A model generated the notes under the pieces. The model saw only the letters and a program-made list of their open reading frames with translations. It searched no databases and was not told the origin of the DNA. Below are positions 31,044 to 53,564 of a stretch of DNA of 64,000 nucleotides, piece after piece. This stretch comes from a candidate division WWE3 bacterium (GTDB lineage: Bacteria; Patescibacteriota; WWE3; 2-01-FULL-39-13). Numbering within the stretch: the first letter of the stretch is position 1; the number at the start of each line of letters is the position of its first letter. A program made the position numbers and the translations under genes. Location: positions 104,496 through 168,495 of the forward strand of contig CALRDH010000003.1 of the NCBI GenBank assembly GCA_943354835.1. The letters are read 5' to 3'.

Positions 31044-31092
31044 ATTTAGAGTTGTGATTTTTGTTAGATTTTATTATAGTAAAGGAACGATT

Positions 31093-34197: not shown

Positions 34198-34229
34198 CTG
34201 TTATTTGCGACTTCCATAAAATATAAAAT

Positions 34230-35327: not shown

Positions 35328-35341
35328 TTGCAAATACGAAT

Positions 35342-36205
35342 ATGACAAAAGTTAAAGTGATTGATCTTCAAATCAAAGGGACTAGAATCCGTCGTGATGT
35401 TATTGACTTAGTAACAAGATCCCGCGATGGTCATATTCCATCTGCACAATCAATGGTAGAAATTTTATCCGTCCTTTATTATCACATTCTCAACGTAGAC
35501 CCGAAAAACCCAAATAAACCTGATAGAGATAGATTTATACTTAGTAAAGGGCATGGATGTGCTTCACTATATGCAGTATTGGCAGACTTGGGGTTTTTCC
35601 CACGATCTGAATTAGAAAAATACGCAACAATGAGTGGTATATTGGGTGGTCACCCAGAAATGCAAAAAGTTCCTGGAATCGAAGTTTCAACAGGATCACT
35701 CGGGCATGGATTTCCAATGGGGGTTGGCATGGCAATGTCAGCAAAACTAAATAATCAAAAGCACAAAGTATATTGCGTAGTTGGCGATGGCGAATGCAAC
35801 GAAGGAACTATATGGGAAGCTGCTAATATCTCCGCACATTTTAAACTTGATAACCTTGTTGTGATTGTTGATCACAACAAGCAACAAGCTAGTGGTGACG
35901 TTTTTGAAATAATGAATCCACACCTACTTTCTGAAAAGTGGAAATCATTTGGATGGGAAACTATTGAGTTAGATGGACACAACATAGAAAGCCTACATAA
36001 AGCTTTTACATCACTTCCATTTAAATCTGGAAAACCTTCAGCAATAATTGCAAATACCATAAAAGGAAAAGGCATTTCATTTATGGAAAACGAAAGAAGA
36101 TGGCATACAGCAATTCCAAACGAAGAAGAATTTAAATTAGCAATGGCAGAACTAGATGAACAAGAAAAACAACTAACGAAGATAAAAGGAGGCAGTAAAA
36201 AATGA
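35342..36205 (+). CDS. Transketolase, N-terminal (ThDP/PP-domain) subunit of a split enzyme
   Basis: ...ILSKGHGCASLYAVLADLGF...GSLGHGFPMGVGMA...VVGDGECNEGTIWEAANISAHFKLDNLVVIVDHNKQQ. Confidence 0.85.
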   Translation: MTKVKVIDLQIKGTRIRRDVIDLVTRSRDGHIPSAQSMVEILSVLYYHILNVDPKNPNKPDRDRFILSKGHGCASLYAVLADLGFFPRSELEKYATMSGILGGHPEMQKVPGIEVSTGSLGHGFPMGVGMAMSAKLNNQKHKVYCVVGDGECNEGTIWEAANISAHFKLDNLVVIVDHNKQQASGDVFEIMNPHLLSEKWKSFGWETIELDGHNIESLHKAFTSLPFKSGKPSAIIANTIKGKGISFMENERRWHTAIPNEEEFKLAMAELDEQEKQLTKIKGGSKK

Positions 36206-37134
36206 GAAAAGCATTTGTGGAAGCGATATCAGAGATCCTAGACACTAACGACAAAGCATTGCTTCTGATTGGAGATATTGGTGCATACCTTCTAAAAGAT
36301 ATTAGTGCAAAACATCCAAATAGAGTAATAAACATGGGCATTGCAGAAGCTGGAATGATGAGTGCAGCAGTAGGTCTTGCACTAGAAGGGTGGATTCCAT
36401 TTGTTTATACAATAACGCCGTTTGTAACCGCAAGAGCGTACGATCAAATTAGAGCGGGTGTTGGATATCATGAAGCCAATGTAAAAATAGTTGGTATCGG
36501 AAGTGGCCTTTCATATAGTGCACTTGGTGGAACACACCATTCAATAGAAGACATAGCAATGATGAGATCAATACCTGGAATGACAATCATTTCCCCATCA
36601 GATGGACCAGAAACAATACAGGCAACAAAAGCTACAGCAAATCATTTTGGACCTGTTTACCTTAGACTAATGTTAAATGTTGAACCATTAGCTATTGATA
36701 TTAAACGCAAAGAATTCAAAATAGGACAAGCTAAAAAACTTTCGAATGGCAAAGATTTAACAATAATTGCAACTGGAGAACTCGTGAAAGAAGCTTTGGA
36801 CGTTTCCGCTATGTTGCAAAAAGATAAAATATACGCAAGCATAATAAATATGAGCACGATTAAACCAATCGATAAAAAAACTATCGAATCTGAAGTTATA
36901 TCCGCACCTATTATATTCACACTCGAAGAGCACAATGTTATTGGTGGATTAGGATCAGGAGTAGCAGAAGTTATTTCTGAATCAAAGCTAAAATCAAAAC
37001 CACGATTAGTGCGACTCGGAATTCAAGATAAATTCACAAATAAATATGGCCATAAAAGCGAACTCTACGAATATCTGAATCTTGACGCGAAAAGTTTATA
37101 TAAAAGGGTTAAAAAGGAAATTAAAAATGGATAA
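36202..37134 (+). CDS. Transketolase, C-terminal (Pyr-domain + C-terminal domain) subunit
   Basis: ...INMGIAEAGMMSAAVGLALEGWIPFVYTITPFVTARAYDQIR.... 4-nt overlap with the N-terminal subunit gene. Confidence 0.85.
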   Translation: MRKAFVEAISEILDTNDKALLLIGDIGAYLLKDISAKHPNRVINMGIAEAGMMSAAVGLALEGWIPFVYTITPFVTARAYDQIRAGVGYHEANVKIVGIGSGLSYSALGGTHHSIEDIAMMRSIPGMTIISPSDGPETIQATKATANHFGPVYLRLMLNVEPLAIDIKRKEFKIGQAKKLSNGKDLTIIATGELVKEALDVSAMLQKDKIYASIINMSTIKPIDKKTIESEVISAPIIFTLEEHNVIGGLGSGVAEVISESKLKSKPRLVRLGIQDKFTNKYGHKSELYEYLNLDAKSLYKRVKKEIKNG

Positions 37135-38200
37135 ACATCTTGGAATTATATATTCGGATATAAAAGAAATAGCTCACGAAATCTCAAATATTTCAAATAA
37201 ACTTTCAGGATCAACAATAGTTATTACAGGTCCAAATGGTCTTTTAGCAAGCTACATCGTTGACACAATAGCATACTTAAATTCCGAAAAAATTCTAGAA
37301 AAACCATGCAAGGTAATCGGCCTTCAAAGGTCGGAAATAGACAAAAATAGCAGACTTGGACATTTATTAAAACGAAAAGATATAAAACTCATCCAACATG
37401 ACGTTATTGAACCATATAAATTCGCAGAAAAAATCGACTACATAATTCATTCGGCAGGAAGATCAGCCCCTGCAACTTTTCAAAGCGACCCACTTGGAAC
37501 AATTGATGTAAACGTTAAAGGTGTTAGATGGCTTCTTGATTTCGCAAAAGAAAATCCTGTAAAAAGCTTTTTATATATGAGTTCGGGTGAAACATATGGA
37601 AATCCAACACCTGAAAATATTCCAACCCCAGAAACATATGCAGGAAATGTATCAACATTCGCACCACGAGCATGCTACACAGAATCAAAAAGGCTTTCAG
37701 AAACGTTGTGCAATGTGTATTTCCAGCAGTATCAAATTCCAGTAAAAATAGCTCGTCCATTCATAGTATATGGACCCGGACTTCCAATTACTGACAGAAG
37801 AGTCATGGCCGATTTTATGAGGCTTGGGATCGAGGGAAAACCGATAGAAATGCTTTCAGAAGGCTTAGATAAACGGTCTTATTGTTATATCTTGGATGCA
37901 ACAGTGTTATTTTTCAACATGCTCCTTTCGGATTATAACGGTGAAGCTTTCAACGTCGCAAACGACACAGAAGAAATAAGCATTAGAGACTTAGCAGAAA
38001 ACATACATAATATTTGCGGAATTAAAAGTCCCGTTACTGTAAAAAAGACAGAAGACACTAAATTCATATCAGATGCTCCTAAACGCGTTTTGCCTGATAT
38101 TTCAAAAGCTAAAAAACTACTTGGATACAAACCAGAGATTGGGATTCGTGAAGGACTTAAAAGAACAATTGAATGGAACCGGGCTTTTTTCAAAAAATAA
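37127..38200 (+). CDS. NAD-dependent epimerase/dehydratase, UDP-glucuronate decarboxylase (UXS/ArnA-CTD)-like SDR
   Basis: IVITGPNGLLASYIV (Rossmann) and ...YGNPTPENIPTPETYAGNVSTFAPRACYTESKRLSE (the UXS-type YxxxK region). The start is at the ATG overlapping the previous stop. Confidence 0.75.
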   Translation: MDKHLGIIYSDIKEIAHEISNISNKLSGSTIVITGPNGLLASYIVDTIAYLNSEKILEKPCKVIGLQRSEIDKNSRLGHLLKRKDIKLIQHDVIEPYKFAEKIDYIIHSAGRSAPATFQSDPLGTIDVNVKGVRWLLDFAKENPVKSFLYMSSGETYGNPTPENIPTPETYAGNVSTFAPRACYTESKRLSETLCNVYFQQYQIPVKIARPFIVYGPGLPITDRRVMADFMRLGIEGKPIEMLSEGLDKRSYCYILDATVLFFNMLLSDYNGEAFNVANDTEEISIRDLAENIHNICGIKSPVTVKKTEDTKFISDAPKRVLPDISKAKKLLGYKPEIGIREGLKRTIEWNRAFFKK

Positions 38201-38201
38201 T

Positions 38202-39143
38202 ATGTCTGACATAATTGATATTCTAGCTTGCCCAGTATGTGGAAACCCGATAACTAAAACGAACAACAAACTCTCATGTTCAAATAATGATTGCAAGAAA
38301 TCATATAGCCTCCTTTTTGATAACATATTTTCATTTTTAGACAATGACCAATCAGATGATACTGAACTTTCAATTGAAAAATGGAATGAATTTTATTCTG
38401 ACAAAACAAAATTTGATGATTATGAAAAGCGATATCAATTATACCTATCTGATAATTATGATAATGTGTATAGACAAATTTCCGAAAATAAAAAATTTGA
38501 CGAGAAAACAACAATCCTTTTAGAAATAGGATGTGGCCCAATGTTTTTAGCCCGTGCACTTTCTGATAAATGTAAATTGGTTGTCGGTATAGATTTTTCC
38601 ATAAAAGCATTAAAAACTGCAAAAGCAATGCTCGAAAAAAACAAGATAAAAAACTACATACTAATACATGGTGACATAAAAAATATGCCAATTAAAGATG
38701 GCTCGATTGACATTATCTACGGTGGTGGCGTTATAGAGCATTTCACAGATACATATACAGCAATCCAGGAACTTTATCGGGTTCTAAAACCAAGCGGGAT
38801 TTCTTTTAATACCGTTCCACATTTGAATATCGGATCATTAACCTATCGTCAAGTTTGGGGAAATATTCCTAATTTCCCAGTTTTAAAACAGATTGCAGAA
38901 TTCATACATATAAAATTACTAAAATCAAAACATATGACGTTTGGTTATGAATTATCTTTTTTAGCTACACATCTAAAGTATCTTCATAGTAAAGCTGGTT
39001 TCAAAAAGGTAGAAGCTAAAAAGTTCGAAACAAAATTAATGTTTGAATTTATTCCGACAAAAATTCTAAAAAACAGTATGTCTTGGCTAGCAAATAACAG
39101 CCCATTATTTTGGCCAATGATTAAAGTTATAGGGACCAAATAA
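38202..39143 (+). CDS. Class I SAM-dependent methyltransferase with N-terminal Trm112-like zinc ribbon
   Basis: MSDIIDILACPVCGNPI...LSCSNNDC and ...LLEIGCGPMFLARAL...VVGIDFS...GGGVIEHF. Confidence 0.7.
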   Translation: MSDIIDILACPVCGNPITKTNNKLSCSNNDCKKSYSLLFDNIFSFLDNDQSDDTELSIEKWNEFYSDKTKFDDYEKRYQLYLSDNYDNVYRQISENKKFDEKTTILLEIGCGPMFLARALSDKCKLVVGIDFSIKALKTAKAMLEKNKIKNYILIHGDIKNMPIKDGSIDIIYGGGVIEHFTDTYTAIQELYRVLKPSGISFNTVPHLNIGSLTYRQVWGNIPNFPVLKQIAEFIHIKLLKSKHMTFGYELSFLATHLKYLHSKAGFKKVEAKKFETKLMFEFIPTKILKNSMSWLANNSPLFWPMIKVIGTK

Positions 39144-39144
39144 A

Positions 39145-40941
39145 ATGTGCGGCATAGCAGGAATCATTAACGGAAATAAAAACTCAAAAAAAACTTTGCA
39201 AAAAATGATGCATTCTATAAAGCATAGAGGCCCCGACGACAATGGAACATTTTGCGATGAACATGCTGGTGTATATTTCGGATCGCAAAGATTAAGCATC
39301 AACGACTTAAGCCCTAAAGGTAAAATGCCAATGTTTAGTGAAGATAAATCGATTACAGTATGCCAAAATGGAGAAATATATAATTATCACGAATTGAAAA
39401 ACGAACTTTCGACACATGGCCACAAATTTATTTCAGGATCAGATACAGAAGTTATCGTACACGGGTATGAACAATGGGGAACAAATATTTTTAAAAAACT
39501 CCAAGGCATGTTTGCAATCGCAATTTATGACATTAAAAATCATACAGTAATACTCGCAAGAGATAGAATTGGCATAAAGCCTTTGTACTATTTAAGACAT
39601 AAAGATTCAATGTATTTTTCATCTGAAGCTAAATCATTTTCTTCAATTAATGATTTTTCATTTGGAAACAATATTGACTATGAGAATATTAATTTAATGT
39701 TGGGATTCATGTTTCTACCTAAATCCGATGAAACAATAGTCAAAGGAATAAAAAAATTAGAACCAGGTCATTTCATGAAAATTGACCTTAAAAAAAGCTC
39801 ATCGGGAGACATAAGCATACACAAATACTGGGATATAGAAAATTCAAGTAATAAATTAATCTCAAAAGACTTAAGTTTCGAGGATGCAGTAAATGAACTC
39901 GACAAACTGTTACAAAAAACCGTTTCATCACATTTAATGTCAGATGTTCCACTTGGAGTTATGTTATCTGGTGGTCTTGATTCATCATTAATCACGGCCT
40001 TAGTAAAAAAGCTGTCTACATCAGAAACATTAACATTCACTGCAAAATTTGCACATAAACTTAATGAAAGCGAAAACGCAAGAAGTATTGCAAATTACCT
40101 TAAGACGAATCATAAAGAAATTTTAATCGATACAAAAGACGTAAGCGCAAACATAGAAAAGCATATAAGAAATTATGATGACCTAACAACTTTTGATGGT
40201 GGACTTATAACAACAAAAATACTATGTGATGAGATAAAAAAACTTGGCGTGACGGTTCTACTTTTAGGGGAAGGCGCGGATGAAATATTCGGGGGTTATT
40301 CCTGGTTTGGGATTTCGCAACTCCCCTACTCTTTCTTGCCAGATATATTTAAATCTGCAATTTATTATTACGCAATCTCAAGAAACGTAACATTTAATCC
40401 TCAAACATATTATTCCTATTGGAACAAAATGTTCAAATCAATGCACAATTCGGACACATTCAAAAATGTCAGTAACCTGGAATTAAAAGCTCAACTTCCG
40501 AATCATTTGTTAATGAAAGTAGACAAAGCAACAATGGCAGCTTCCGTAGAAGCAAGAGTTCCATTTTTGGATCACAAAGTAGTAGAGTTTGCATATAATC
40601 TTCCTCGTGAATATAAACTTAAAGGAAATATGTACAATTTCAACTCTTCAAATGAAAAATATATATTAAGAAAAGTCGCTGAAAGATATCTTCCACAAGA
40701 AGCCGTATGGAGAAAAAAACGAGGATTCATGCTTCCAATGGGACAAGTACTTGATTCAGACATATCAAAAGTCAAAGATTACATGTTCTCGAAAGACTCA
40801 ATTTCATCAAAACTATTATCAAAGAAACAAGTAGAGAATTTATTTATAGAATCACCTATTGGGATTATGAAAATGCAAAAAGAATATCTAATCTGGAGAT
40901 TATTCCTTCTTGAAGTTTGGAAAAAGGAATATGCAAGATAA
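39145..40941 (+). CDS. asnB: Asparagine synthetase B-type glutamine amidotransferase
   Basis: MCGIAGII (Ntn Cys2), ...RGPDD..., and the PP-loop LSGGLDSS. Confidence 0.88.
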   Translation: MCGIAGIINGNKNSKKTLQKMMHSIKHRGPDDNGTFCDEHAGVYFGSQRLSINDLSPKGKMPMFSEDKSITVCQNGEIYNYHELKNELSTHGHKFISGSDTEVIVHGYEQWGTNIFKKLQGMFAIAIYDIKNHTVILARDRIGIKPLYYLRHKDSMYFSSEAKSFSSINDFSFGNNIDYENINLMLGFMFLPKSDETIVKGIKKLEPGHFMKIDLKKSSSGDISIHKYWDIENSSNKLISKDLSFEDAVNELDKLLQKTVSSHLMSDVPLGVMLSGGLDSSLITALVKKLSTSETLTFTAKFAHKLNESENARSIANYLKTNHKEILIDTKDVSANIEKHIRNYDDLTTFDGGLITTKILCDEIKKLGVTVLLLGEGADEIFGGYSWFGISQLPYSFLPDIFKSAIYYYAISRNVTFNPQTYYSYWNKMFKSMHNSDTFKNVSNLELKAQLPNHLLMKVDKATMAASVEARVPFLDHKVVEFAYNLPREYKLKGNMYNFNSSNEKYILRKVAERYLPQEAVWRKKRGFMLPMGQVLDSDISKVKDYMFSKDSISSKLLSKKQVENLFIESPIGIMKMQKEYLIWRLFLLEVWKKEYAR

Positions 40942-42049: not shown

Positions 42050-42069
42050 TAAAAACCCTCAAAAAACTT

Positions 42070-45190: not shown

Positions 45191-45248
45191 ACGTTAATAG
45201 TCGATAGCCAATAGGTATAATAATCATGTTCCATATTGAACTTCAAAA

Positions 45249-45277
45249 CTGTCAAAATCAAAATTTATAAGTATAAT
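45249..45277 (+). promoter_or_regulatory. Candidate promoter (CTGTCA -35, 17 bp spacer, TATAAT -10), giving a near-leaderless transcript for the GT2-GtrA gene
   Basis: ctgtca at 45249-45254 and tataat at 45272-45277. The ATG is at 45287, only ~10 nt past the -10, with no SD. Confidence 0.25.
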
Positions 45278-45286
45278 TAATGATAA

Positions 45287-46504
45287 ATGAATCTACGGCT
45301 TTCTTCTTTGACCATATTTTTTCCGTTTTATAATGATGCTGGCACAGTCAAAAAAATGCTTGACCAAGCATATGAATATGGATCTCTCGTAACAAATGAT
45401 CTTGAGGTAATCGCACTAAACGGTGGAAATTCAAAAGACAATACATATCAAGAAATTCTAAAATTTCAAAAATTAAATCCTTCGGTAAAAATTGTAAATA
45501 AAAAAGATAATGTCGAAGGCTATGCCGTCATAAAACATGGGCTATACTCTTCCACAAAGGATTTTGTTTTTTATACTGACGGCGACGCACAATATAGCCT
45601 AAAATCTGATTTCTTAAATCTTATCAAAAAACAAAACGATACAAATGCGGATGTAGTAAATGGACACAAAAAAGACAGAAAGGATAATATTTTCAGGATT
45701 TTATTCGGTTTTTTATACGCCACTTTTAGCAGAGTGATTTTTAAATCACCAATTACGGATATTGACTGTGACTTCAGATTGATACGGACATCTATTCTAA
45801 AAAGATTTAAGCTAGAAAGTCACGATGCATCAATCCTGCCAGAGCTTGTTCTTAAGCTAAAACTAAATGGTGCGAATTTCTCCGAAATTCCCGTCAGCCA
45901 TTTTCCAAGAGAATATGGCAAATCAAATTACACTGCATTTTCACTATTTAAAGAGAAGCTGGCTGGTGATTTTAAGTTATACATAAAGATGAGAAAAGAA
46001 ATAAAAAATATTGACATCAATTTATTCGAATTTACATTGTCATATTTAAAAAACAGCGAGAATTTCATATCAAGCTTTTTACGTATAGATAACTTTAAAT
46101 TTATTAAATTCGGCTTAGTTGGAGTTAGTAGTGTCATATTGCATTTTATATTTTTTAATATATTTATGTTATTAACTAATTTAAACACAGGATTAATAAC
46201 GATCGTATCAGACCAATTACCGATATTGACGTCGTATATTTTGAACAATAACTATACATTTAAGAAAATCAAAGATGTATCAAGTAATCGAAAACATCCG
46301 ACTAGGTTTATAAAGTACTGGTCAATAATAATGATTTCAACTGTGATACACAGTATCATTATTACATCAGGAATTTATATTTTCGGTGATACGATTTTAA
46401 TTGCGAATATATTCTTTATTGCTGGAGTAATAATTGCCATGATTTGGAATTATTATTTTCACAGTACATTGATTTGGAAAGCTTCTATAGAAAAAGGAAG
46501 ATAA
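45287..46504 (+). CDS. GT2 glycosyltransferase fused to a C-terminal GtrA-like 4-TM domain (CsbB/GtrB-like polyprenol-phosphate sugar synthase)
   Basis: N-terminal GT2 (LTIFFPFYNDAGTV...FYTDGDAQY). C-terminal FIKFGLVGVSSVILHFIFFNIF...IAMIWNYYFHSTLIWK is GtrA-family. Confidence 0.75.
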   Translation: MNLRLSSLTIFFPFYNDAGTVKKMLDQAYEYGSLVTNDLEVIALNGGNSKDNTYQEILKFQKLNPSVKIVNKKDNVEGYAVIKHGLYSSTKDFVFYTDGDAQYSLKSDFLNLIKKQNDTNADVVNGHKKDRKDNIFRILFGFLYATFSRVIFKSPITDIDCDFRLIRTSILKRFKLESHDASILPELVLKLKLNGANFSEIPVSHFPREYGKSNYTAFSLFKEKLAGDFKLYIKMRKEIKNIDINLFEFTLSYLKNSENFISSFLRIDNFKFIKFGLVGVSSVILHFIFFNIFMLLTNLNTGLITIVSDQLPILTSYILNNNYTFKKIKDVSSNRKHPTRFIKYWSIIMISTVIHSIIITSGIYIFGDTILIANIFFIAGVIIAMIWNYYFHSTLIWKASIEKGR

Positions 46505-46592
46505 CTTTGCTGGTTTACCTAGAAAGAGAATATTTCGATTTTGCATTTTTTCTGCTATGGTTTTGATAAAGTCATTTAGTATGATTAATTAA

Positions 46593-47210
46593 ATGAAAAA
46601 AAACGAGAAAATTATAGTAAACCTAGGGTGTAGCGGATCAAGGATTCCTGGCTCTATTGGGGTAGACGTCATACCAAGAGAAGGTACTGTTGATATAGTT
46701 CATAATCTAAATAAATACCCATACCCCTTTAAAGAAAATTACGCTGATGAAATCCATTTATACCATGTACTTGAACATTTAGATGATTCAATCAAAACAA
46801 TTGAAGAAATTTACAGGATACTAAAACCAGATGGAATTTTATATTTGAGAGTTCCACATTTCAGCAGTTTATACGCCTGGGGTGATATAACGCATAAAAA
46901 AGCTTTTTCAATTTATGCGTTCGATATTTTCGACGCAAATAGAGATTATAAAAAATGGGGATATACCAAAGCTAAATTCGAAATTCTAACCAGAAAAATC
47001 AGATATTTTTATACATGGCCAAACGAAGACTGGTACATGAAATACATAGTCAAGCCAGACTGGCCATTTGGGGCCGGAATAATATTGAAACCAATTATTA
47101 CTTTACTAAATTTTCTAATCAATTTGTCACCAGAAATATTCGAAAGATTTTGGTGCTATTGGGTTGGTGGCGCTGCTGAAATATACTTAATCATGAAAGC
47201 TAAAAAATAA
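46593..47210 (+). CDS. Class I SAM-dependent methyltransferase (Methyltransf_11/23-like)
   Basis: VNLGCSGSRIPGSIGVDV...YHVLEHLDD...LKPDGILYL. Confidence 0.55.
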   Translation: MKKNEKIIVNLGCSGSRIPGSIGVDVIPREGTVDIVHNLNKYPYPFKENYADEIHLYHVLEHLDDSIKTIEEIYRILKPDGILYLRVPHFSSLYAWGDITHKKAFSIYAFDIFDANRDYKKWGYTKAKFEILTRKIRYFYTWPNEDWYMKYIVKPDWPFGAGIILKPIITLLNFLINLSPEIFERFWCYWVGGAAEIYLIMKAKK

Positions 47211-47266
47211 TGGGCTTGTTAGACACAAAGAATATCATGTAGAATGCAATATAGTTCACGAAGTTA

Positions 47267-48481
47267 ATGCGGAAAGGAAAATTTAAAGTGGAAGATTTAA
47301 AAGTAAAATTAATAAAAGATACTTTCTACAACGAAGCACAAACAAAAAAAGAATTATGTGATTTCATAATGAAAACAGATCGTTTGAGTATGTGGACAGA
47401 GTGTAGAAAGTTTGAAGATAATTTCGCAAAGCACCAGGGAGCAAAAAACTGCTCCATGTTCACAAGCGGAAGTACCGCAAACCTAGCATTAATTCAATCA
47501 CTTATAAATCTAAAAAGATTAGAAAAAGGAGATACAGTTGCGTTTTCCGCTGTCACCTGGTCTACAAATGTAATGCCAATGCTACAACTTGGATTAAATA
47601 TTCATCCGGTTGATGTTGAAGTTGATACCTTAAATAGTTCAGCTGAATTATTCGAAAAAGCATTAGAAGAAAATCCGTCAATAAAGGCTTTCTTTATAAC
47701 CAACGTTTTGGGATTTTGTTCTGACATAGATAAAATTGCTGATATATGCAAAAGTCGAGGAATTATCCTTATAGAAGATAATTGCGAATCTTTAGGAACT
47801 ATTTATAAAGGTAAAAAACTTGGATCATATGGACTTGCGGGAACATTCTCTTTTTACGTAGGCCATCACATGTCTACAATTGAAGGCGGGGCATTATGTA
47901 CCGACGATGCAGAATTAGATACCATGGTTAAAATGGTTCGGTCACACGGAATGGATAGAAACTTAGACGAAGACAAAAAAATAAAAGTCAGAGAAAAATT
48001 CAAACTTGATGATTTCTATTCGCGATATACATTCTATACTCTTGGTTATAATTTAAGACCAAATGAAATCAACGGCTTTTTGGGAAACAATCAACTTCAA
48101 TACATTGACGAAATCTTTAGAATTAGAAATGAAAATTTCATGAAATTTATATCTGCCGTAAACAAAAATGATATTGTACCAATCCGATATAATCATATAG
48201 ATTTTGTTTCTAATTTCGCATTTCCAGTTATCTGCAAAAACAAAACTATTTTGAATAAATATATAAAGGTATTCGAAAATGCAGGAATAGAAATTCGCCC
48301 AGTCGTTAGCGGAAATATGATGAATCAAATATTCATAAAAGATTACGTAGGTAGTAAAAAGTTCGACCTACCAGGCGCACAAAAAATACACGAAGATGGA
48401 TTTTACTTCGGGAATAATCCCGACATGACAAAAAAAGAGATCAATATAGTTATAAAAGCGTTTAAAGATGCCAGTAAGTAA
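47267..48481 (+). CDS. DegT/DnrJ/EryC1/StrS-family PLP enzyme with His at the Schiff-base Lys position (sugar 3-dehydratase candidate, ColD/E1-like)
   Basis: The fold-type I sugar aminotransferase pattern is (...MFTSGSTANLALIQSLI...). The conserved SFxxxKxxxxGEGG is FSFYVGHHMSTIEGG here, so His replaces the Lys that sits 6 residues before EGG. Confidence 0.7.
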   Translation: MRKGKFKVEDLKVKLIKDTFYNEAQTKKELCDFIMKTDRLSMWTECRKFEDNFAKHQGAKNCSMFTSGSTANLALIQSLINLKRLEKGDTVAFSAVTWSTNVMPMLQLGLNIHPVDVEVDTLNSSAELFEKALEENPSIKAFFITNVLGFCSDIDKIADICKSRGIILIEDNCESLGTIYKGKKLGSYGLAGTFSFYVGHHMSTIEGGALCTDDAELDTMVKMVRSHGMDRNLDEDKKIKVREKFKLDDFYSRYTFYTLGYNLRPNEINGFLGNNQLQYIDEIFRIRNENFMKFISAVNKNDIVPIRYNHIDFVSNFAFPVICKNKTILNKYIKVFENAGIEIRPVVSGNMMNQIFIKDYVGSKKFDLPGAQKIHEDGFYFGNNPDMTKKEINIVIKAFKDASK

Positions 48482-49301
48482 AGTTACAAATATATCAAAA
48501 AAAGAGTTCTGCAAAAATTTTGGCATAGAAGAAATTGACCTAGTTGATTTAGGTATATTTAATGAAAATGACTTTAAAGAGCTAGAGGAAGTATTTGGAT
48601 ATTTAAAAGGCAGTAAGCGACTTTCACATTTAGTTAATGGCATACCATACCTGATCTCACACTTCTTTGAATTGTTAGCAATCGCAGATCAGATAATATC
48701 AAATCAACTCAAGGACATAAAAAAATATTCAACAGATCAAAAGATCAAGCTAAAGGATAGATATCCAATATCGGACTATATAATAAAGGCTAGTATTATT
48801 TCGGGATTTAAGCCAAAAAATATTTTAGAAATAGGAACATATTATGGCTGGGGAACGGCTTCTATCAAAGCAGCTTCGCCAAAATCGACAGTTTACACAA
48901 TGAATCCGAAAGAGAATGAAAATGCGAATAATCCAATAAATGAAAATGACATAGGCAAAATTTATAGGAAAAAGAACCTAGATGCAAAGCAAATCTGGGC
49001 AGACAGCACAAAATATGACTATAAAAAATTACCAGAAATAGACGTCACATATATAGACGGAAATCATGAACATGATTTTGTATATTCAGATCTTGTAAAT
49101 ACATCAAAGATAACTAAAAAGGCAATAGTACTAGATGACTATATACCATCAAAAGATAGTCCGCGAGGTGACGTCAGAGCTTATGGAGAATGGAATAAAT
49201 CTGTTGTATCAGCTGTAGATAGCTTTTTAAATAAAAATGGTAAATTATTTAAGTATGCATATTGGATAGAAGAGACACCTATTTGTGTACTAATTAAATA
49301 A
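48468..49301 (+). CDS. Methyltransferase-like protein (class I, Methyltransf_24/CmcI-like)
   Basis: ...ILEIGTYYGWGTASI...TYIDGNHEHDFVYSDL...IVLDDY. Confidence 0.45.
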   Translation: MPVSKVTNISKKEFCKNFGIEEIDLVDLGIFNENDFKELEEVFGYLKGSKRLSHLVNGIPYLISHFFELLAIADQIISNQLKDIKKYSTDQKIKLKDRYPISDYIIKASIISGFKPKNILEIGTYYGWGTASIKAASPKSTVYTMNPKENENANNPINENDIGKIYRKKNLDAKQIWADSTKYDYKKLPEIDVTYIDGNHEHDFVYSDLVNTSKITKKAIVLDDYIPSKDSPRGDVRAYGEWNKSVVSAVDSFLNKNGKLFKYAYWIEETPICVLIK

Positions 49302-49303
49302 AT

Positions 49304-50269
49304 ATGGAAATAAATGCAAGCCAGTCTAAAAACTTTTTATATAATCTTTTAAAAATTCGTCTAGTCGATGAATATATTGCTGACGTGTATCCAACAGATG
49401 TTATCAAGTGCCCAATACACTTAAGTATCGGATCTGAAGCAGTTTCGGTTGGAATATGCTCTGCGCTCAAGAAAACTGATATGGTAATAGGCGGGCATCG
49501 TGGACACGGAATATACTTAGCAAAAGGTGGAGATCTTAATGAATTTATGGCTGAAATGTATGGTAGAGAAACTGGATGCTCTGGTGGAAAAGGCGGATCT
49601 ATGCATTTAATTTCACTCGAAAACGGCCTTTTGGGCACAACACCAATACTTGGATCGACAATACCAATTGGAGTTGGCGCAGCACTATCATCAAAATTGA
49701 AAAAAAATGGCAAATTAACTGCAATATTTTTTGGCGACGGAGCATCAGAAGAAGGCGTCTATTATGAAAGTTTAAACCTAGCCGCTCTATACAAACTCCC
49801 AGTAATTTTTGTATGCGAAAATAATAAATACTCGATATTTCAGGATCTAAAAGCGAGACAGCCTGTCGATAATTTATATAAAAAAGGAGAGGCGTTTGGT
49901 ATTTCCGGAGAAAGAGTCGATGGAAATAATGTTGAGGACGTCTTTTTAGCCGCAAAACGAGCAGTTAAAGTAGCTAAATCAGGAAAACCATATTTAATAG
50001 AATGTGTCACAAATAGATGGAGGCAGCATGTTGGCCCATTTTATGACCATGAAATTGGATTTGGAACTAAAGAAGAAATTGAGAAAATTATGTTAAATGA
50101 AGACCCAATTGCAAATTTATTAAAGAAGGCTAAAAAGGCGGGTTTTTTCGACGATAAATTTGTCGAAAAAACCCGCAAACGAATTATTAAAGAAGTTACT
50201 AATTCAATCGAATTTGCAAACAAAAGCCCACTTCCGAGTGTCGAAAAGTTGTATAGTCATATATATTAA
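49304..50269 (+). CDS. ThDP-dependent 2-oxoacid dehydrogenase E1 component alpha subunit-like
   Basis: ...CPIHLSIGSEAVSVGICSALKKTDMVIGGHRGHGIYLAKGGDL...GKGGSMHL...FFGDGASEEG...FVCENNKYS. Confidence 0.85.
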   Translation: MEINASQSKNFLYNLLKIRLVDEYIADVYPTDVIKCPIHLSIGSEAVSVGICSALKKTDMVIGGHRGHGIYLAKGGDLNEFMAEMYGRETGCSGGKGGSMHLISLENGLLGTTPILGSTIPIGVGAALSSKLKKNGKLTAIFFGDGASEEGVYYESLNLAALYKLPVIFVCENNKYSIFQDLKARQPVDNLYKKGEAFGISGERVDGNNVEDVFLAAKRAVKVAKSGKPYLIECVTNRWRQHVGPFYDHEIGFGTKEEIEKIMLNEDPIANLLKKAKKAGFFDDKFVEKTRKRIIKEVTNSIEFANKSPLPSVEKLYSHIY

Positions 50270-50271
50270 TT

Positions 50272-51327
50272 ATGAGAGAATTATCCTACGGAGAAGCTAT
50301 AAAAGAAGCAACTTTTCAGATGATGGAAAAAGATCCATCTATAATTGTAATGGGAGAAGGTGTAAATGATCCTACTGGGATGTTTGGATCAACTTCAGAT
50401 TTATATAAAACATTCGGGAAAGAAAGATTAATAGATGTTCCAAATAGCGAAAATGCGTTTACTGGAATGGCAATTGGTGCTGCTATGACAGGAATGCGAC
50501 CGATTATCGTTCATCAAAGAAATGATTTTTTACTGTTAGCTATGGATCAGATGGCAAGTCAAGCAGCGAAATGGTCATATATGTTTTCAGGTAAAGCACA
50601 TGTCCCGATTGTAATAAGGGCTGTTGTAGGGCGCGGATGGGGACAAGGAGCACAACACTCCCAAAGTTTACAAAGTTTATTTATGCATTTTCCGGGATTA
50701 AAAGTTGTCATGCCAGCCAATGCATATGATGCCAAAGGCCTTCTTGTATCAGCACTCTCTGAAGAAAATAGCCCGATAATTATTATTGAACATAGATGGT
50801 TATACAAAGCTAAATGCGACGTTCCAGAAAAGATTTATTCAGTCCCGATTGGTAAAGCTAGTATCGCAAGAAAAGGTAAAGACGTAACGATTATCGCTAC
50901 CTCTCTAGCAGTTGCAGATTCTTTAGTTGCATCAGAAAAACTTATAGAATTAGGCGTTTCTGCAGAAGTTATAGATCTAAGAACTGTACGCCCACTGGAC
51001 CTTGATATGATTAAAAAATCAGTAATCAAAACTCAAAACCTTGTAATTGTCGATTCTGGTTGGAAAACCTGTGGTGTATCCGCCGAGGTTGCAGCAGTGA
51101 TAGCAGAAGATCCAAAATCATTTCGAGCTTTAAAATCACCAATTAAACGAGTGGCATGGGCCGAGACACCGGCACCAACTACATATGCGCTTGAAAATAT
51201 CTTCTACCCTACAGTTGAAACTATTGTGTCAGCAACATTAGAAGTTATAAAAGGCGAAACTATCAATATGGAATCAAAATACGAAGAACAAAAATTTACA
51301 AAGAAACAATTTACTGGATCCTTTTAG
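50272..51327 (+). CDS. ThDP-dependent 2-oxoacid dehydrogenase E1 component beta subunit-like
   Basis: MRELSYGEAIKEA...IVMGEGV...ERLIDVPNSENAFTGMAIGAAMTGMRPI.... Directly follows the alpha gene. Confidence 0.85.
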   Translation: MRELSYGEAIKEATFQMMEKDPSIIVMGEGVNDPTGMFGSTSDLYKTFGKERLIDVPNSENAFTGMAIGAAMTGMRPIIVHQRNDFLLLAMDQMASQAAKWSYMFSGKAHVPIVIRAVVGRGWGQGAQHSQSLQSLFMHFPGLKVVMPANAYDAKGLLVSALSEENSPIIIIEHRWLYKAKCDVPEKIYSVPIGKASIARKGKDVTIIATSLAVADSLVASEKLIELGVSAEVIDLRTVRPLDLDMIKKSVIKTQNLVIVDSGWKTCGVSAEVAAVIAEDPKSFRALKSPIKRVAWAETPAPTTYALENIFYPTVETIVSATLEVIKGETINMESKYEEQKFTKKQFTGSF

Positions 51328-53560: not shown

Positions 53561-53564
53561 CAAT

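What the first reader, a model, noticed from the sequence alone, without database searches (positions are those of the whole stretch)
35342..51327. Two ThDP-dependent enzyme pairs (split transketolase; E1 alpha/beta without E2/E3) embedded in the sugar locus
A split transketolase (35342..37134) and an E1 alpha/beta pair (49304..51327) sit between Gmd/SDR/DegT/methyltransferase/GT genes. No dihydrolipoyl acyltransferase or dehydrogenase lies nearby. In glycan loci such enzymes are known to do two things. One is to generate sedoheptulose-7-P for heptose pathways; a cytidylyltransferase-like RfaE-domain-II gene is at 32033..32527. The other is to transfer two-carbon ketol or hydroxyethyl units onto keto-sugars, as in branched-chain sugars of the yersiniose type. 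Two distinct ThDP systems in one glycan cluster is rare and suggests branched or chain-extended sugars.
Basis: inference. Interest (0 to 1): 0.7.

Follow-up and report, generated by a model that had tools for sequence, protein, structure and literature searches.

The report
Two sugar-branching thiamine enzyme cassettes
A surface-sugar gene cluster of an uncultured, probably Patescibacteria (CPR), bacterium carries two thiamine-dependent enzyme pairs that most likely add two-carbon side branches to activated keto-sugars, a chemistry so far described for these enzyme classes only in antibiotic-producing actinomycetes.

Summary
A split transketolase-like pair (35342-37134) and an E1 alpha/beta pair (49304-51327) lie in a 45-kb glycan locus. 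No E2 or E3 gene occurs anywhere in the 64-kb window.

Neither pair looks like central metabolism. The E1 alpha falls in a clade of 35 sequences from many phyla (196/200 NJ bootstraps). None of those loci has an E2/lipoyl gene, and 27 of the 35 sit among nucleotide-sugar genes. Outside the clade, 34 of 44 have an adjacent E2.

The transketolase C-subunit keeps its cofactor and catalytic residues. It has lost the sugar-phosphate site: E. coli Ser385, His461, Asp469 and Arg520 become loop change, Gly, Leu and Leu. About 105 of its 120 closest homologues share this signature, mostly in sugar-nucleotide loci. Supplying sedoheptulose-7-P is therefore unlikely.

The two pairs sit in parallel cassettes. 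Each is followed by an SDR, and the two SDRs are 54% identical. The upstream genes are a genuine Gmd and a ColD-type 3-dehydratase.

Most likely the E1 pair adds an acetyl unit from pyruvate (yersiniose-like) and the transketolase-like pair adds a hydroxyacetyl unit, both onto GDP-4-keto-deoxyhexoses. Both enzyme classes are known, but have been described only in actinomycete secondary metabolism. No biochemistry was done.

The parts
33466..34197 (+). Class I SAM methyltransferase, first gene of operon A
   Evidence: Methyltransf_11/25.
34230..35327 (+). GDP-mannose 4,6-dehydratase (Gmd). It makes GDP-4-keto-6-deoxy-D-mannose, the presumed ketone acceptor.
   Evidence: Pfam GDP_Man_Dehyd 1e-149. 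NCBIfam TIGR01472 equivalog, 548 bits against a cut-off of 415.
35342..36205 (+). Transketolase-like ThDP enzyme, N-terminal (PP-domain) subunit. His31, His71, His104 and His255 correspond to E. coli His26/66/100/261. GDG at 148-150 and Asn179 form the ThDP motif.
   Evidence: Pfam. Best solved relative is the 6yak split transketolase, 1e-79. Residue numbering.
36202..37134 (+). Transketolase-like C-terminal (Pyr plus C domain) subunit with a non-canonical acceptor site. Arg2 and Glu49 are kept. E. coli Ser385 falls in a changed loop (GDIGAY). His461 becomes Gly100, Asp469 becomes Leu108, Gln474 becomes His113 and Arg520 becomes Leu158.
37082..38200 (+). Extended SDR, paralogue 1. The likely true start is the ATG at 37127. 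Proposed NADPH-dependent reductase acting after branching.
   Evidence: Pfam Epimerase/3Beta_HSD/NAD_binding_4. 54% identical over 357 aa to the SDR that follows E1 beta. The same position is conserved after the TK C-half in L007 and L009.
38073..39143 (+). Class I SAM methyltransferase. The likely true start is near 38202.
   Evidence: Pfam, translation. Conserved after the SDR in L002, L007 and L009.
39145..40941 (+). AsnB-type glutamine amidotransferase. Its role in the glycan is unknown.
   Evidence: Pfam, TIGR01536 466 bits. Conserved in the cassette in relatives.
40910..42049 (+). GT-B (GT1-like) glycosyltransferase, last gene of operon A
   Evidence: Pfam.
45287..46504 (+). GT2 plus GtrA-domain polyprenyl-phosphate glycosyltransferase, first gene of operon B
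   Evidence: Pfam. Promoter-like sites lie just upstream at 45194-45277 (consensus matches only).
46593..47210 (+). SAM methyltransferase
   Evidence: Pfam.
47267..48481 (+). ColD-type PMP-dependent GDP-4-keto-6-deoxymannose 3-dehydratase. His200 stands in place of the aminotransferase Lys.
   Evidence: Best solved relative is ColD/WbdK (2gms), 2.6e-62. The ColD His188 position is His.
48468..49301 (+). Methyltransf_24-family methyltransferase. It precedes the ThDP pair.
   Evidence: Pfam. 48% identical to the methyltransferase that precedes the TK N-half in relative L007.
49304..50269 (+). E1 alpha-like ThDP subunit (alpha-KADH2 class). GDG at 144-146, Asn173/174 and His242. Carries the sugar-clade signature Pro37, Gly244, Pro245.
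50272..51327 (+). E1 beta-like subunit. Glu60 and His129 are conserved.
51334..52419 (+). Extended SDR, paralogue 2. Proposed branch or keto reductase.
   Evidence: An orthologous SDR is fused to a GT1 in L001.
52409..54791 (+). Two GT1-family glycosyltransferases (52409-53560 and 53565-54791)
   Evidence: Pfam. A GT follows the SDR in relatives too.
31054..32031 (+). GDP-L-fucose synthase-like SDR (Fcl or ColC type). It could divert the Gmd or ColD products to fucose or colitose.
   Evidence: NF047922, 470 bits against a cut-off of 500.
32033..32527 (-). Small cytidylyltransferase-like protein that weakly resembles RfaE domain II
   Evidence: Pfam CTP_transf_like 1.6e-16. rfaE_dom_II 82 bits against a cut-off of 181.5.

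Best explanation
Both ThDP pairs are sugar-tailoring carboligases, not central-metabolism enzymes. Each sits in its own operon, in a cassette of the form [keto-sugar maker] - [ThDP heterodimer] - [SDR] - [glycosyltransferases].

Operon B (inferred pathway):
1. Gmd makes GDP-4-keto-6-deoxy-D-mannose.
2. The ColD-type dehydratase removes the 3-OH, giving GDP-4-keto-3,6-dideoxymannose.
3. The E1 alpha/beta pair decarboxylates pyruvate to hydroxyethyl-ThDP and adds it to the C-4 ketone. The product is a 4-C-acetyl tertiary alcohol.
4. The downstream SDR reduces a carbonyl, most plausibly the branch, to give a 4-C-(1-hydroxyethyl)-3,6-dideoxyhexose. This would be a GDP-linked yersiniose-type sugar.
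5. The two GT1 enzymes then transfer it.

Operon A (inferred pathway):
1. The transketolase-like pair forms dihydroxyethyl-ThDP from a ketol donor, such as hydroxypyruvate or a non-phosphorylated ketose.
2. It adds this unit to the C-4 ketone of the Gmd product, giving a 4-C-hydroxyacetyl (glycolyl) branch.
3. The paralogous SDR, a methyltransferase and the AsnB-like enzyme process the product further.

What is shown:
- gene identities and operon layout;
- the lost phosphate site in the transketolase-like C-subunit;
- a separate E1 clade with no E2;
- the conserved cassette, the paralogous SDRs and the ColD-type His.

What is inferred: donors, acceptors, regiochemistry, order of steps and final sugar structures.
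For: **E1 pair**
- The window has no E2/E3.
- All five contigs examined that carry homologues at 45-80% identity (two CPR, Nitrospirae, Omnitrophica, one JGI metagenome contig) place the pair among sugar genes, without E2/E3.
- In a tree of 79 E1 alpha sequences from 80 genome loci, a clade of 35 that includes the window has 196/200 bootstrap support. It holds 27 loci with at least two sugar genes nearby, 4 with one and 4 with none, and no E2. Outside the clade, 34 of 44 have an E2/lipoyl neighbour.
- All 120 best database hits carry the clade signature Pro37/Gly244, apart from two that lack the Pro37 position. No E2-linked sequence carries it.
- E1 alpha scores below the PDH equivalog cut-off: 299 bits against 394.

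**Transketolase-like pair**
- The catalytic His residues and ThDP motif are kept.
- E. coli Ser385, His461, Asp469 and Arg520 are replaced.
- About 105 of 120 homologues share this signature. The remaining 15 have the canonical RSSEHEDHQR pattern of the characterised split transketolase 6yaj.
- Of 55 loci of at least 5 kb that carry a transketolase-like C-half, mostly metagenome contigs, 38 have at least two nucleotide-sugar genes within 7 kb.

**Parallel cassettes**
- The two SDRs are 54% identical.
- The Methyltransf_24 gene before E1 alpha is 48% identical to the one before the TK N-half in L007.
- The two ThDP beta/C subunits share only 24% identity.
- The cassette is conserved in CPR relatives.
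- In one relative the SDR is fused to a GT1.

**Substrate supply**
- Gmd is a true equivalog.
- The DegT-family gene is ColD-type, with His at the ColD His188 position.
- ColD-type genes recur beside E1 pairs (L019, L020, L025) and beside TK pairs (L094, L095, L099, L109, L131, L141).

**Precedent**
- E1-type alpha-KADH2 enzymes add acetyl from pyruvate to keto-sugars. KbDH was characterised in vitro. AviB1/B2 and Plm8/9 have genetic support.
- Split-gene transketolases have been proposed for hydroxyacetyl transfer in miharamycin and amipurimycin biosynthesis.
- YerE/YerF perform the same logic on CDP-4-keto-3,6-dideoxyglucose.
- Sources: PMC12247030, PMC9306805, PMC4802897, PMC10338323.
Against: - There is no biochemistry. 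Every substrate and product is inferred.
- The function of the split transketolase class is unproven even in Streptomyces.
- I could not obtain the actinomycete enzymes (AviB1/B2, KbDH, or the miharamycin and amipurimycin transketolases), so I could not test whether they cluster with the window's enzymes.
- The SDR's closest solved relative is UDP-glucuronate decarboxylase. It might therefore make a 4-keto-pentose acceptor upstream of branching, as EvdS6 and AviE2 do, rather than reduce the branch.
- Gmd, ColD and the Fcl-like gene could simply make fucose or colitose.
- A large transketolase subclade is followed by an APH-like kinase and a HAD-like protein. That hints at free sugars or sugar phosphates as substrates in that subclade.
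- The window contains no mannose-1-P guanylyltransferase.
- The tree is neighbour-joining on one subunit. Context labels come from my own seed searches and crude ORF calling.
Confidence: 0.62

Rival explanations
1. The split transketolase is the organism's ordinary pentose-phosphate transketolase. Alternatively, it supplies sedoheptulose-7-P for a heptose pathway and merely happens to lie in the glycan locus.
For: - Its best solved relative is a genuine split transketolase, 6yak/6yaj, at 1e-79 and 5e-52.
- The N-half catalytic His residues are intact.
- An RfaE-domain-II-like gene lies nearby.
- HldE- and GmhA-like genes accompany many homologous pairs.
Against: - Three of the four phosphate-binding residues and the acceptor-reading Asp are replaced (Gly100, Leu108, Leu158, changed Ser385 loop). 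The canonical split transketolases found in the same search keep all of them.
- The pair is translationally coupled inside the conserved cassette Gmd/SDR - MT24 - TK - SDR - MT - AsnB in relatives.
- The window has no GmhA, HddA or GmhB. The RfaE-II match is weak.
Confidence: 0.07
2. The E1 alpha/beta pair is the E1 component of a pyruvate, acetoin or branched-chain 2-oxoacid dehydrogenase complex whose E2 and E3 are encoded elsewhere.
For: - Its best solved relatives are PDH E1 alpha and beta, at 8e-50 and 2e-68.
- The catalytic His242 (alpha) and His129 (beta) are conserved.
- E1 beta just reaches the NF006667 subfamily cut-off, 321.7 against 321.
- Some database sources name homologues acetoin:DCPIP oxidoreductase.
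Against: - No E2/E3 lies within 49 kb upstream or 12 kb downstream.
- The pair belongs to a clade with 196/200 support in which none of 35 loci has an E2, while 34 of 44 outside it do.
- E1 alpha is below the PDH equivalog cut-off.
- The pair is tightly packed between the ColD-type gene, the MT24 gene, an SDR and GTs.
Confidence: 0.05
3. One or both ThDP enzymes act on small, non-nucleotide substrates. Examples would be building an unusual ketose or hydroxy-ketone from free aldehydes or keto acids. The product would then be phosphorylated, nucleotide-activated or amide-linked (via AsnB) and attached to the glycan as a substituent, rather than forming a C-branch on an NDP-keto-sugar.
For: - A large transketolase-like subclade is always followed by an APH-like kinase and a HAD-like protein.
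- A small cytidylyltransferase-like gene lies in the window.
- An AsnB-type amidotransferase is conserved in the transketolase cassette.
- Another sister subclade lies beside an FGGY sugar kinase.
- One homologue is named apulose-4-phosphate transketolase by its source.
Against: - The window's own subclade lacks the kinase and HAD genes. It is flanked directly by Gmd or other 4,6-dehydratase-type SDRs and by an SDR.
- ColD-type dehydratases, which act only on NDP-4-keto sugars, recur next to both enzyme types.
- Published precedent is for NDP-keto-sugar acceptors.
Confidence: 0.18
4. The SDRs next to the ThDP pairs are UXS/ArnA-like NDP-glucuronate decarboxylases. They would supply an NDP-4-keto-pentose acceptor, so the products would be branched pentoses of the eurekanate type rather than branched 6-deoxyhexoses.
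For: - The best solved relative of the SDR is UDP-glucuronate decarboxylase, 9e-38, well ahead of the next hit.
- The catalytic Ser-x-Glu and YxxxK motifs are present.
- There is precedent in avilamycin and everninomicin biosynthesis (AviE2/EvdS6 with AviB1/B2).
Against: - The window has no UDP-glucose dehydrogenase.
- A Gmd or other 4,6-dehydratase-type SDR lies directly upstream of the transketolase-like pair here and in relatives (L007, L009), and a ColD-type dehydratase lies just upstream of the E1 pair here and in L002/L003.
- The end of beta-strand 2 reads INRS/LQRS, with Arg and no Asp. This suggests exchangeable NADP(H), not tightly bound NAD+ (sequence; inference from SDR cofactor rules).
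- Fusion of the SDR to a GT in L001 suggests it acts last.
Confidence: 0.08

Closest known systems
alpha-KADH2-type sugar-branching enzymes (AviB1/AviB2 of avilamycin, Plm8/Plm9 = Pau11/Pau12 of paulomycin, EvdU5/EvdS3, aldgamycin and kosinostatin enzymes, KbDH-alpha/beta of kibdelomycin)
   Same: All are E1 alpha plus E1 beta heterodimers encoded by adjacent genes with no E2/E3 partner. All are embedded among NDP-sugar genes next to the enzyme that makes the keto-sugar. The expected chemistry is also the same: an acetyl unit from pyruvate is added to a sugar ketone and the branch is then modified.
   Different: The known examples are all in actinomycete secondary-metabolite clusters. This one is in a cell-envelope glycan locus of a CPR-like bacterium, and its clade spans many phyla. 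The nucleotide carrier is probably GDP, not dTDP or UDP. Sequence relatedness to the actinomycete enzymes was not tested.
[quoted passage not shown]
   Same: Both are split N and C subunits placed beside a keto-sugar-forming enzyme in a sugar pathway. Both imply a ketone rather than an aldose phosphate as acceptor.
   Different: According to the 2025 review, the known examples all come from Streptomycetes and none has been characterised. Here the class appears in glycan loci of CPR, Nitrospirae, Brocadiaceae, Pelagibacter and many metagenome contigs. This analysis also defines an active-site signature for it (His461Gly, Asp469Leu, Gln474His, changed Ser385 loop).
YerE/YerF of yersiniose A biosynthesis, and the ErwE and MygE homologues in LPS
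   Same: The pathway logic is the same. A 4,6-dehydratase and then a PMP-dependent 3-dehydratase give an NDP-4-keto-3,6-dideoxyhexose. A ThDP enzyme adds an acyl branch at C-4 and a reductase reduces the branch. The product goes into a surface glycan.
   Different: YerE is a single-chain enzyme of the acetolactate-synthase (DC) fold, described as a ThDP-dependent flavoprotein in the title of the 1998 paper, and not an E1 or TK heterodimer. The carrier is CDP, not GDP. YerE-like genes do co-occur with E1 or TK pairs in some related loci (L005, L021, L032, L156), but none is in this window.
Canonical split transketolase (Carboxydothermus hydrogenoformans, PDB 6yak/6yaj)
   Same: It is the closest solved structure. 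It has the same two-gene architecture, ThDP motif and catalytic histidines.
   Different: The canonical enzyme keeps Ser385, His461, Asp469 and Arg520 (E. coli numbering) for sugar phosphates. The window's enzyme has a changed loop, Gly, Leu and Leu at those positions.
ColD (GDP-4-keto-6-deoxy-D-mannose 3-dehydratase, E. coli O55 WbdK)
   Same: It is the best solved relative of 47267-48481 (2.6e-62). The diagnostic active-site His replacing the aminotransferase Lys is conserved.
   Different: In colitose biosynthesis ColD is followed by ColC. Here it is followed by a methyltransferase, the E1 pair and an SDR.

Membership tests
2-oxoacid dehydrogenase complex E1 (PDH, acetoin DH, BCKDH) | A cognate lipoyl-bearing E2 (usually with E3) is encoded with or near the E1 genes | tested here: not met
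   No E2/E3 domain or motif occurs in the 64-kb window. None of 35 loci in its clade has an E2-like ORF, against 34 of 44 outside it.
2-oxoacid dehydrogenase complex E1 (PDH, acetoin DH, BCKDH) | Groups phylogenetically with E2-linked E1 alpha sequences, or passes the curated equivalog score | tested here: not met
   It falls in a separate clade with 196/200 NJ bootstraps. TIGR03182 scores 299 bits against a cut-off of 394. E1 beta is borderline on a subfamily model, 321.7 against 321.
2-oxoacid dehydrogenase complex E1 (PDH, acetoin DH, BCKDH) | ThDP-binding GDG...NN motif, cofactor-activating Glu in beta, and the catalytic His residues of alpha and beta | tested here: met
   GDG144-146, Asn173/174 and His242 in alpha. 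Glu60 and His129 in beta. The E1 fold and ThDP chemistry are intact.
alpha-KADH2 sugar-branching carboligases (AviB1/B2, Plm8/9, KbDH) | An adjacent alpha/beta gene pair without E2/E3, inside an NDP-sugar pathway, next to an enzyme that forms a keto-sugar | tested here: met
   The order ColD-type dehydratase, MT24, E1 alpha, E1 beta, SDR, GT, GT is tightly packed. The same layout occurs in relatives.
alpha-KADH2 sugar-branching carboligases (AviB1/B2, Plm8/9, KbDH) | Sequence clustering with the characterised actinomycete members | not tested
Krug et al. 2024 is not held.
alpha-KADH2 sugar-branching carboligases (AviB1/B2, Plm8/9, KbDH) | Pyruvate-dependent acetyl transfer to a sugar ketone | not testable with these tools
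   This needs an enzyme assay.
Canonical transketolase (EC 2.2.1.1) | ThDP motif plus catalytic histidines (E. coli His26, His66, His100, His261, His473) and Glu411 | tested here: met
   His31, His71, His104, His255, GDG148-150 and Asn179 in the N-half. Glu49 and His112 in the C-half.
Canonical transketolase (EC 2.2.1.1) | Sugar-phosphate binding site (Arg358, Ser385, His461, Arg520) and the Asp469 that reads the acceptor's C2-OH | tested here: not met
   Only Arg358 (Arg2) is kept. The others become the GDIGAY loop, Gly100, Leu158 and Leu108. Canonical split transketolases in the same search keep all of them.
Split-gene transketolases proposed for keto-sugar hydroxyacetylation (miharamycin/amipurimycin type) | Two-gene transketolase located in a sugar-tailoring cluster beside a keto-sugar-forming enzyme | tested here: met
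   The order is Gmd, TK N-half, TK C-half, SDR. Of 55 transketolase-like loci of at least 5 kb, mostly metagenome contigs, 38 have at least two sugar-nucleotide genes nearby.
Split-gene transketolases proposed for keto-sugar hydroxyacetylation (miharamycin/amipurimycin type) | Sequence relatedness to the Streptomyces members, and demonstrated hydroxyacetyl transfer | not tested
The one Streptomyces plasmid hit examined (L174) has a different signature and no sugar context.
YerE-type (DC/acetolactate-synthase fold) branching enzymes | Single chain with TPP_enzyme_N/M/C domains | tested here: not met
   Both pairs have the TK/E1 fold instead. The window's enzymes would work like YerE without being members of its family.
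ColD/E1-type PMP-dependent 3-dehydratases | DegT fold with His in place of the Schiff-base Lys | tested here: met
   FYVGHH aligns with ColD FYSHH, placing His200 at the His188 position. The ColD mutant chains in the same search (3b8x, 2r0t) differ at that residue, which fixes the position. It groups with the 12 His-type sequences among 40 neighbouring DegT genes.

The most novel reading that the evidence does not exclude
The transketolase-like clade defined here (His461Gly, Asp469Leu, Gln474His, altered Ser385 loop) is a large, cross-phylum family of ketone-accepting hydroxyacetyl transferases acting on NDP-4-keto sugars.

Together with a sister clade of E2-less E1 alpha/beta enzymes, these would be interchangeable modules. 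They share a dedicated SDR and methyltransferase, and would give CPR and many other uncultured bacteria surface glycans bearing two different C2-branched deoxysugars: a 4-C-(1-hydroxyethyl) sugar and a 4-C-glycolyl or 1,2-dihydroxyethyl sugar.

The second sugar type has never been reported in a cell-surface glycan. It would also provide the first tractable enzymes for transketolase-catalysed formation of tertiary alcohols.
Probability: 0.35. Interest if true: 0.72.

Novelty: new member of a known kind. Interest (0 to 1): 0.55.

Why it matters
- **Gap in the field.** C-branched sugars in bacterial surface glycans have so far been attributed to YerE-type enzymes. The E1-type and split-transketolase-type branching enzymes were described only in actinomycete antibiotic pathways. 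The transketolase type has never been characterised, and a 2025 review stated that all known candidates come from Streptomycetes.
- **Wider distribution.** This window and its relatives indicate that both classes are common in envelope-glycan loci across many phyla. These include CPR, Nitrospirae, Omnitrophota, Brocadiaceae, Elusimicrobia, Pelagibacter, Legionellaceae, cyanobacteria and Azospirillum plasmids.
- **Better annotation.** The work yields sequence signatures that separate these enzymes from housekeeping PDH and transketolase. Those signatures could correct widespread misannotation and prevent false metabolic reconstructions, such as inferring a PDH or a pentose-phosphate transketolase in CPR genomes.
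- **Experimental targets.** The locus supplies compact, co-linear candidate sets (Gmd, ColD, ThDP pair, SDR) for testing ketone-accepting carboligation. This reaction is of interest in biocatalysis for making chiral tertiary alcohols.

Tried and rejected
- **Literature searches.** Searches for transketolase genes in O-antigen, capsule or Leptospira rfb clusters found nothing relevant.
- **Papers not held.** Krug et al. 2024 (Angew e202403535), Romo et al. 2019 (PMC6774755) and the apiose-catabolism paper (PubMed id 29867142) are not in the library. I therefore could not read the in-silico survey of alpha-KADH2 and transketolase gene clusters. The apulose-4-phosphate transketolase link rests only on one source's protein name and my own recollection.
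- **Source organism.** The look-up of encoding contigs and the listing of cluster members did not return the NCBI record of the 443-kb source contig. The organism is inferred to be Patescibacteria from its homologues' names and gene content. I could not search the rest of the genome for a second transketolase, E2/E3, or gmhA/hddA/gmhB.
- **ORF calling.** My first greedy ORF caller mislabelled high-GC loci. I replaced it with label-first ORF selection.
- **E2 detection.** The E2 regex alone missed some E2 genes. A homology search with a lipoyl-E2 representative fixed this.
- **Promoter and terminator scan.** The scan gave fewer matches than shuffled sequence and carries no information.
- **Unknown ORFs.** Pfam at a relaxed threshold gave nothing for 26354-26857, 27895-30288, 44549-45190 and 58718-60487, and only marginal matches (E about 0.04) for 30297-31043 and 32546-33391.
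- **Plasmid hit.** The Streptomyces plasmid transketolase hit L174 belongs to a different, probably catabolic, subclade.
- **Rejected idea.** I considered the transketolase-like enzyme as a DXS-like pyruvate user. The N-half scores 287 bits against transketolase but only 43 against DXS, and it keeps the His residues that bind the donor's C1-OH.

Full report
**1. What is in the window**

The window has low GC content, about 0.33. Its gene content is typical of Patescibacteria (CPR): mraZ/mraW/PBP, DUF4012 and DUF5667. The closest homologues of its genes that carry a name are annotated as Patescibacteria.

From about 15.6 kb to the end of the window it is one long glycan locus. This locus includes a Bac_transf initiating transferase, many GT1/GT2 enzymes, a Wzx-like flippase, YfhO, a Wzy_C-like protein, PMT_2 and a B12-radical-SAM enzyme.

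- 35342-36205: Transketolase_N.
- 36202-37134: Transket_pyr plus Transketolase_C.
- 49304-50269: E1_dh.
- 50272-51327: Transket_pyr plus Transketolase_C.

No lipoyl, 2-oxoacid_dh or Pyr_redox domain was found in any ORF of at least 150 aa. No E2 or E3 sequence motif was found in any ORF of at least 80 aa.

**2. Two parallel operons**

Operon A (33466-42049, + strand) reads: MT, Gmd, TK N-half, TK C-half, SDR, MT, AsnB-like, GT.

Operon B (45287 onward, + strand) reads: GT2-GtrA, MT, DegT-family gene, Methyltransf_24, E1 alpha, E1 beta, SDR, GT1, GT1, then large unknown ORFs.

Genes within each operon overlap or are separated by a few bases. Three minus-strand genes separate the two operons.

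Gmd is a true GDP-mannose 4,6-dehydratase: TIGR01472 scores 548 bits against a cut-off of 415. The closest solved relative of the DegT-family gene is ColD, the GDP-4-keto-6-deoxymannose 3-dehydratase (2.6e-62). It carries His at the position of ColD His188, where aminotransferases have Lys.

The two SDRs that follow the two ThDP pairs are 54% identical over their full length. The ThDP beta/C subunits themselves share only 24% identity. The Methyltransf_24 gene that precedes E1 alpha here is 48% identical to the one that precedes the TK N-half in a CPR relative.

The locus therefore contains two versions of one cassette. They differ mainly in which ThDP heterodimer they use.

**3. The E1 pair is not part of a dehydrogenase complex**

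The closest solved relatives are PDH E1 alpha and beta, and the catalytic residues are intact. However, E1 alpha scores below the PDH equivalog threshold, 299 bits against 394.

I examined five contigs carrying homologues at 45-80% identity: two CPR contigs, Nitrospirae, Omnitrophica and one JGI metagenome contig. All five place the pair among SDRs, DegT genes, radical-SAM enzymes, nucleotidyltransferases, GmhA/HldE-like genes and GTs. None has E2/E3 nearby.

I then fetched 80 loci from named genomes using an alignment of these homologues. I labelled their neighbours with seed searches and E2/E3 motifs and built a neighbour-joining tree of 79 E1 alpha sequences.

| Group | n | Neighbour context | E2/lipoyl-like ORF in the locus |
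|---|---|---|---|
| Clade containing the window (196/200 bootstraps) | 35 | 27 with at least 2 sugar genes, 4 with one, 4 with none | 0 |
| Outside the clade | 44 | not tallied | 34 have one |

Clade-specific residues Pro37 and Gly244 (usually followed by Pro245) are present in all 120 best hits from the 5.8-billion-protein search, apart from two that lack the Pro37 position. They are absent from every E2-linked sequence.

It places the pair outside the central-metabolism clades.

Two recurring sub-patterns appear inside the clade:
- Bac_transf, E1 alpha, E1 beta, DegT.
- HldE/GmhA/SDR, E1 alpha, E1 beta, SDR or radical-SAM.

Cultured carriers include Pelagibacter sp. Uisw_136 (L020) and Azospirillum plasmids.

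**4. The transketolase-like pair is not a sugar-phosphate transketolase**

Its closest solved relative is the genuine split transketolase of Carboxydothermus hydrogenoformans. The N-half keeps the ThDP motif and all four catalytic or donor-binding histidines, which are E. coli His26, His66, His100 and His261.

In the C-half, Arg358, Glu411 and His473 are kept. The rest of the substrate site is changed:

| E. coli residue | Residue in the window's C-half |
|---|---|
| Ser385 | loop replaced and one residue shorter (GDIGAY) |
| His461 | Gly100 |
| Asp469 | Leu108 |
| Gln474 | His113 |
| Arg520 | Leu158 |

In established transketolase enzymology, Arg358, Ser385, His461 and Arg520 bind the substrate phosphate, and Asp469 reads the acceptor's C2 hydroxyl.

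Among the 120 best C-half homologues, about 105 share the Gly/Leu/His-His signature. The remaining 15 have exactly the canonical RSSEHEDHQR pattern of the characterised split transketolase.

A metagenome scan with an alignment of the non-canonical type gave 80 further loci. I pooled these with the transketolase-like loci already fetched and the window. Of the 55 that are at least 5 kb long, 38 have at least two nucleotide-sugar genes within 7 kb. The typical pattern is SDR, SDR, TK N-half, TK C-half, accompanied by nucleotidyltransferase, GmhA/HldE-like, DegT, C-methyltransferase or radical-SAM genes.

Loci without such context are enriched for other signatures. One example, RVSES.LHHR, lies beside an FGGY kinase and is probably catabolic.

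In CPR relatives the cassette SDR/Gmd, MT24, TK N-half, TK C-half, SDR, MT, AsnB, GT is conserved. Supplying sedoheptulose-7-P, or a housekeeping role, is therefore unlikely.

**5. What the literature says**

A 2025 review (PMC12247030) lists three ThDP classes that branch keto-sugars:
- YerE-like decarboxylase-fold enzymes, found in LPS pathways (yersiniose, erwiniose, caryophyllose).
- alpha-KADH2, meaning E1 alpha/beta heterodimers, found in secondary metabolites (aldgamycin, avilamycin, kosinostatin, paulomycin, trioxacarcin, kibdelomycin). KbDH-alpha/beta was shown in vitro to use only pyruvate as donor and to accept ketones.
- Split-gene transketolases, proposed to transfer hydroxyacetyl to a keto-sugar in miharamycin and amipurimycin biosynthesis. 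The review counts 13 predicted sequences, 'all from Streptomycetes', with none characterised.

Genetic support for the E1 class comes from work on paulomycin and avilamycin. The hypothesis for everninomicin is given. The YerE/YerF scheme, in which a 4-keto-3,6-dideoxyhexose is acylated by a ThDP enzyme and the branch is then reduced, is described.

Both of the window's pairs therefore belong to known functional classes. They occur in a setting (envelope glycan loci) and in lineages where those classes had not been described in the sources I could read.

**6. Most likely mechanism**

*Operon B.* These steps are inferred:
1. Gmd makes GDP-4-keto-6-deoxymannose.
2. The ColD-type enzyme makes GDP-4-keto-3,6-dideoxymannose. 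This is the GDP analogue of YerE's acceptor.
3. E1 alpha/beta decarboxylates pyruvate and adds the hydroxyethyl-ThDP carbanion to C-4, giving a 4-C-acetyl sugar.
4. The SDR reduces it, giving a yersiniose-type 4-C-(1-hydroxyethyl)-3,6-dideoxyhexose.
5. The Methyltransf_24 enzyme may O-methylate it, and the two GT1 enzymes transfer it.

*Operon A.* The transketolase-like pair keeps the histidines that bind the donor's C1 hydroxyl. It therefore probably forms dihydroxyethyl-ThDP from a ketol donor. The donor could be hydroxypyruvate or a non-phosphorylated ketose, given the lost phosphate site. The enzyme would add this unit to the Gmd product, giving a 4-C-hydroxyacetyl branch. The paralogous SDR, a methyltransferase and the AsnB-like enzyme would then act on the product.

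*Role of the SDRs.* This is the least certain part. Their closest solved relative is UDP-glucuronate decarboxylase, so they might supply a 4-keto-pentose acceptor instead. Three points argue against that:
- The window contains no UDP-glucose dehydrogenase.
- The residues at the end of beta-strand 2 (Arg, no Asp) suggest NADP(H).
- In one relative the SDR is fused to the following GT, which suggests it acts last.

ColD-type dehydratases recur next to both enzyme types in unrelated loci. This supports NDP-4-keto-deoxysugars as the acceptors.

**7. Co-occurrence and rarity**

Both pairs occur together in several other places:
- CPR relatives: the JGI contig with P0010 and P0251. P0121, P0243 and P0362 all list a longest contig of 111,776 bp, which suggests one shared contig.
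- A Nitrospirae MAG (L004).
- Pelagibacter sp. Uisw_136 (L020).
- A metagenome contig (L105).

YerE-like genes join them in several loci. Multiple ThDP branching systems in one sugar locus are therefore recurrent, not unique. Retention of both cassettes in relatives at 62-80% identity suggests that they are not redundant.

**8. Limits**

- Nothing here is biochemical.
- Context labels rest on my own ORF calling and seed searches.
- The tree is neighbour-joining on one subunit.
- The actinomycete reference enzymes could not be included.
- The rest of the source genome could not be searched.
- Part of the transketolase-like family (the subclade with a kinase and a HAD-like protein) may act on non-nucleotide substrates.

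**9. Verdict**

The enzymes are best filed as new members of two known but poorly characterised classes of sugar-branching ThDP enzymes. For the transketolase class, no member has been characterised at all. The window extends both classes to the envelope glycans of CPR and many other phyla.

Noticed in passing
window 5664-11018: This stretch has GC 0.40-0.44 against about 0.33 elsewhere. It holds a 1220-aa Big_13/fn3 surface-type protein followed by KilA-N and Bro-N domain genes. It looks like a mobile or phage-derived island.
   Followed up: no
window 24712-26364; also L004, L005, L007, L009, L012, L016, L028, L139: A B12-binding radical-SAM enzyme (HpnJ-like, 165 bits) heads the locus here and in CPR relatives. 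B12 radical-SAM genes recur right beside E1 or transketolase-like pairs in other phyla. They might C-methylate the sugar or its branch.
   Followed up: partly
L005, L021, L032, L039, L046, L115, L146, L156: A third ThDP class, with the acetolactate-synthase/YerE-like fold, co-occurs with E1 alpha/beta or transketolase-like pairs in the same sugar loci. Up to three ThDP enzyme types can be present in one locus.
   Followed up: partly
L104, L105, L115, L123-L125, L133, L136-L138, L151, L154, L156, L157 and others: A transketolase-like subclade with signature R-NEGELHHK is regularly followed by an APH-like kinase (22 members in 21 loci) and a 203-aa HAD-like protein (20 loci), often with C-methyltransferases. 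This is a distinct, uncharacterised pathway.
   Followed up: partly
L126, L147, L150, L155, L158, L159, L174: A further transketolase-like subclade has Ser at the His461 position, Leu at the Asp469 position, and keeps Ser385 and Arg520. It lacks sugar-nucleotide context. It lies beside an FGGY kinase in L147 and occurs on a Streptomyces plasmid. It is probably catabolic. One related protein (P0282) is named apulose-4-phosphate transketolase subunit B by its source.
   Followed up: partly
L001 2969-5176, and the same gene on the JGI contig of P0010: The SDR that follows E1 beta is fused to a GT1 glycosyltransferase in a single 735-aa protein.
   Followed up: no
L173 (Azospirillum ramasamyi plasmid NZ_CP029835, 41425-46084); also A. 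lipoferum 4B NC_016588: Cultured Azospirillum strains carry the gene order HAD-IIIA hydrolase, NAD(P) oxidoreductase, E1 alpha, E1 beta, DegT on plasmids, with no E2/E3 annotated within the 19-kb stretch examined. These are usable hosts for testing the function of the sugar-type E1 clade.
   Followed up: partly
window 26354-26857, 27895-30288, 30297-31043, 32546-33391 (-), 44549-45190 (-): These five ORFs inside the glycan locus have no significant family match, even at relaxed thresholds. One of them is 797 aa. ORFs of matching length (169, 797 and 252 aa) lie in the same order in relatives L007 and L008; their sequences were not compared.
   Followed up: partly
window 54778-60487: A 1316-aa ORF (weak DUF5667 match) and a 589-aa ORF with no family follow the glycosyltransferases. 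Similar giant ORFs of 1110-1170 aa follow the GTs in L002 and L009.
   Followed up: no
window 18669-19388 (-): A YvcK/CofD-related protein (UDP-GlcNAc-binding family, 229 bits) lies inside the glycan locus between GT genes and the flippase.
   Followed up: no
window 1024-2211 (-): This 395-aa ORF matches only a short part of the EPSP_synthase/MurA family (residues 6-82). It is either highly divergent or degenerate.
   Followed up: no
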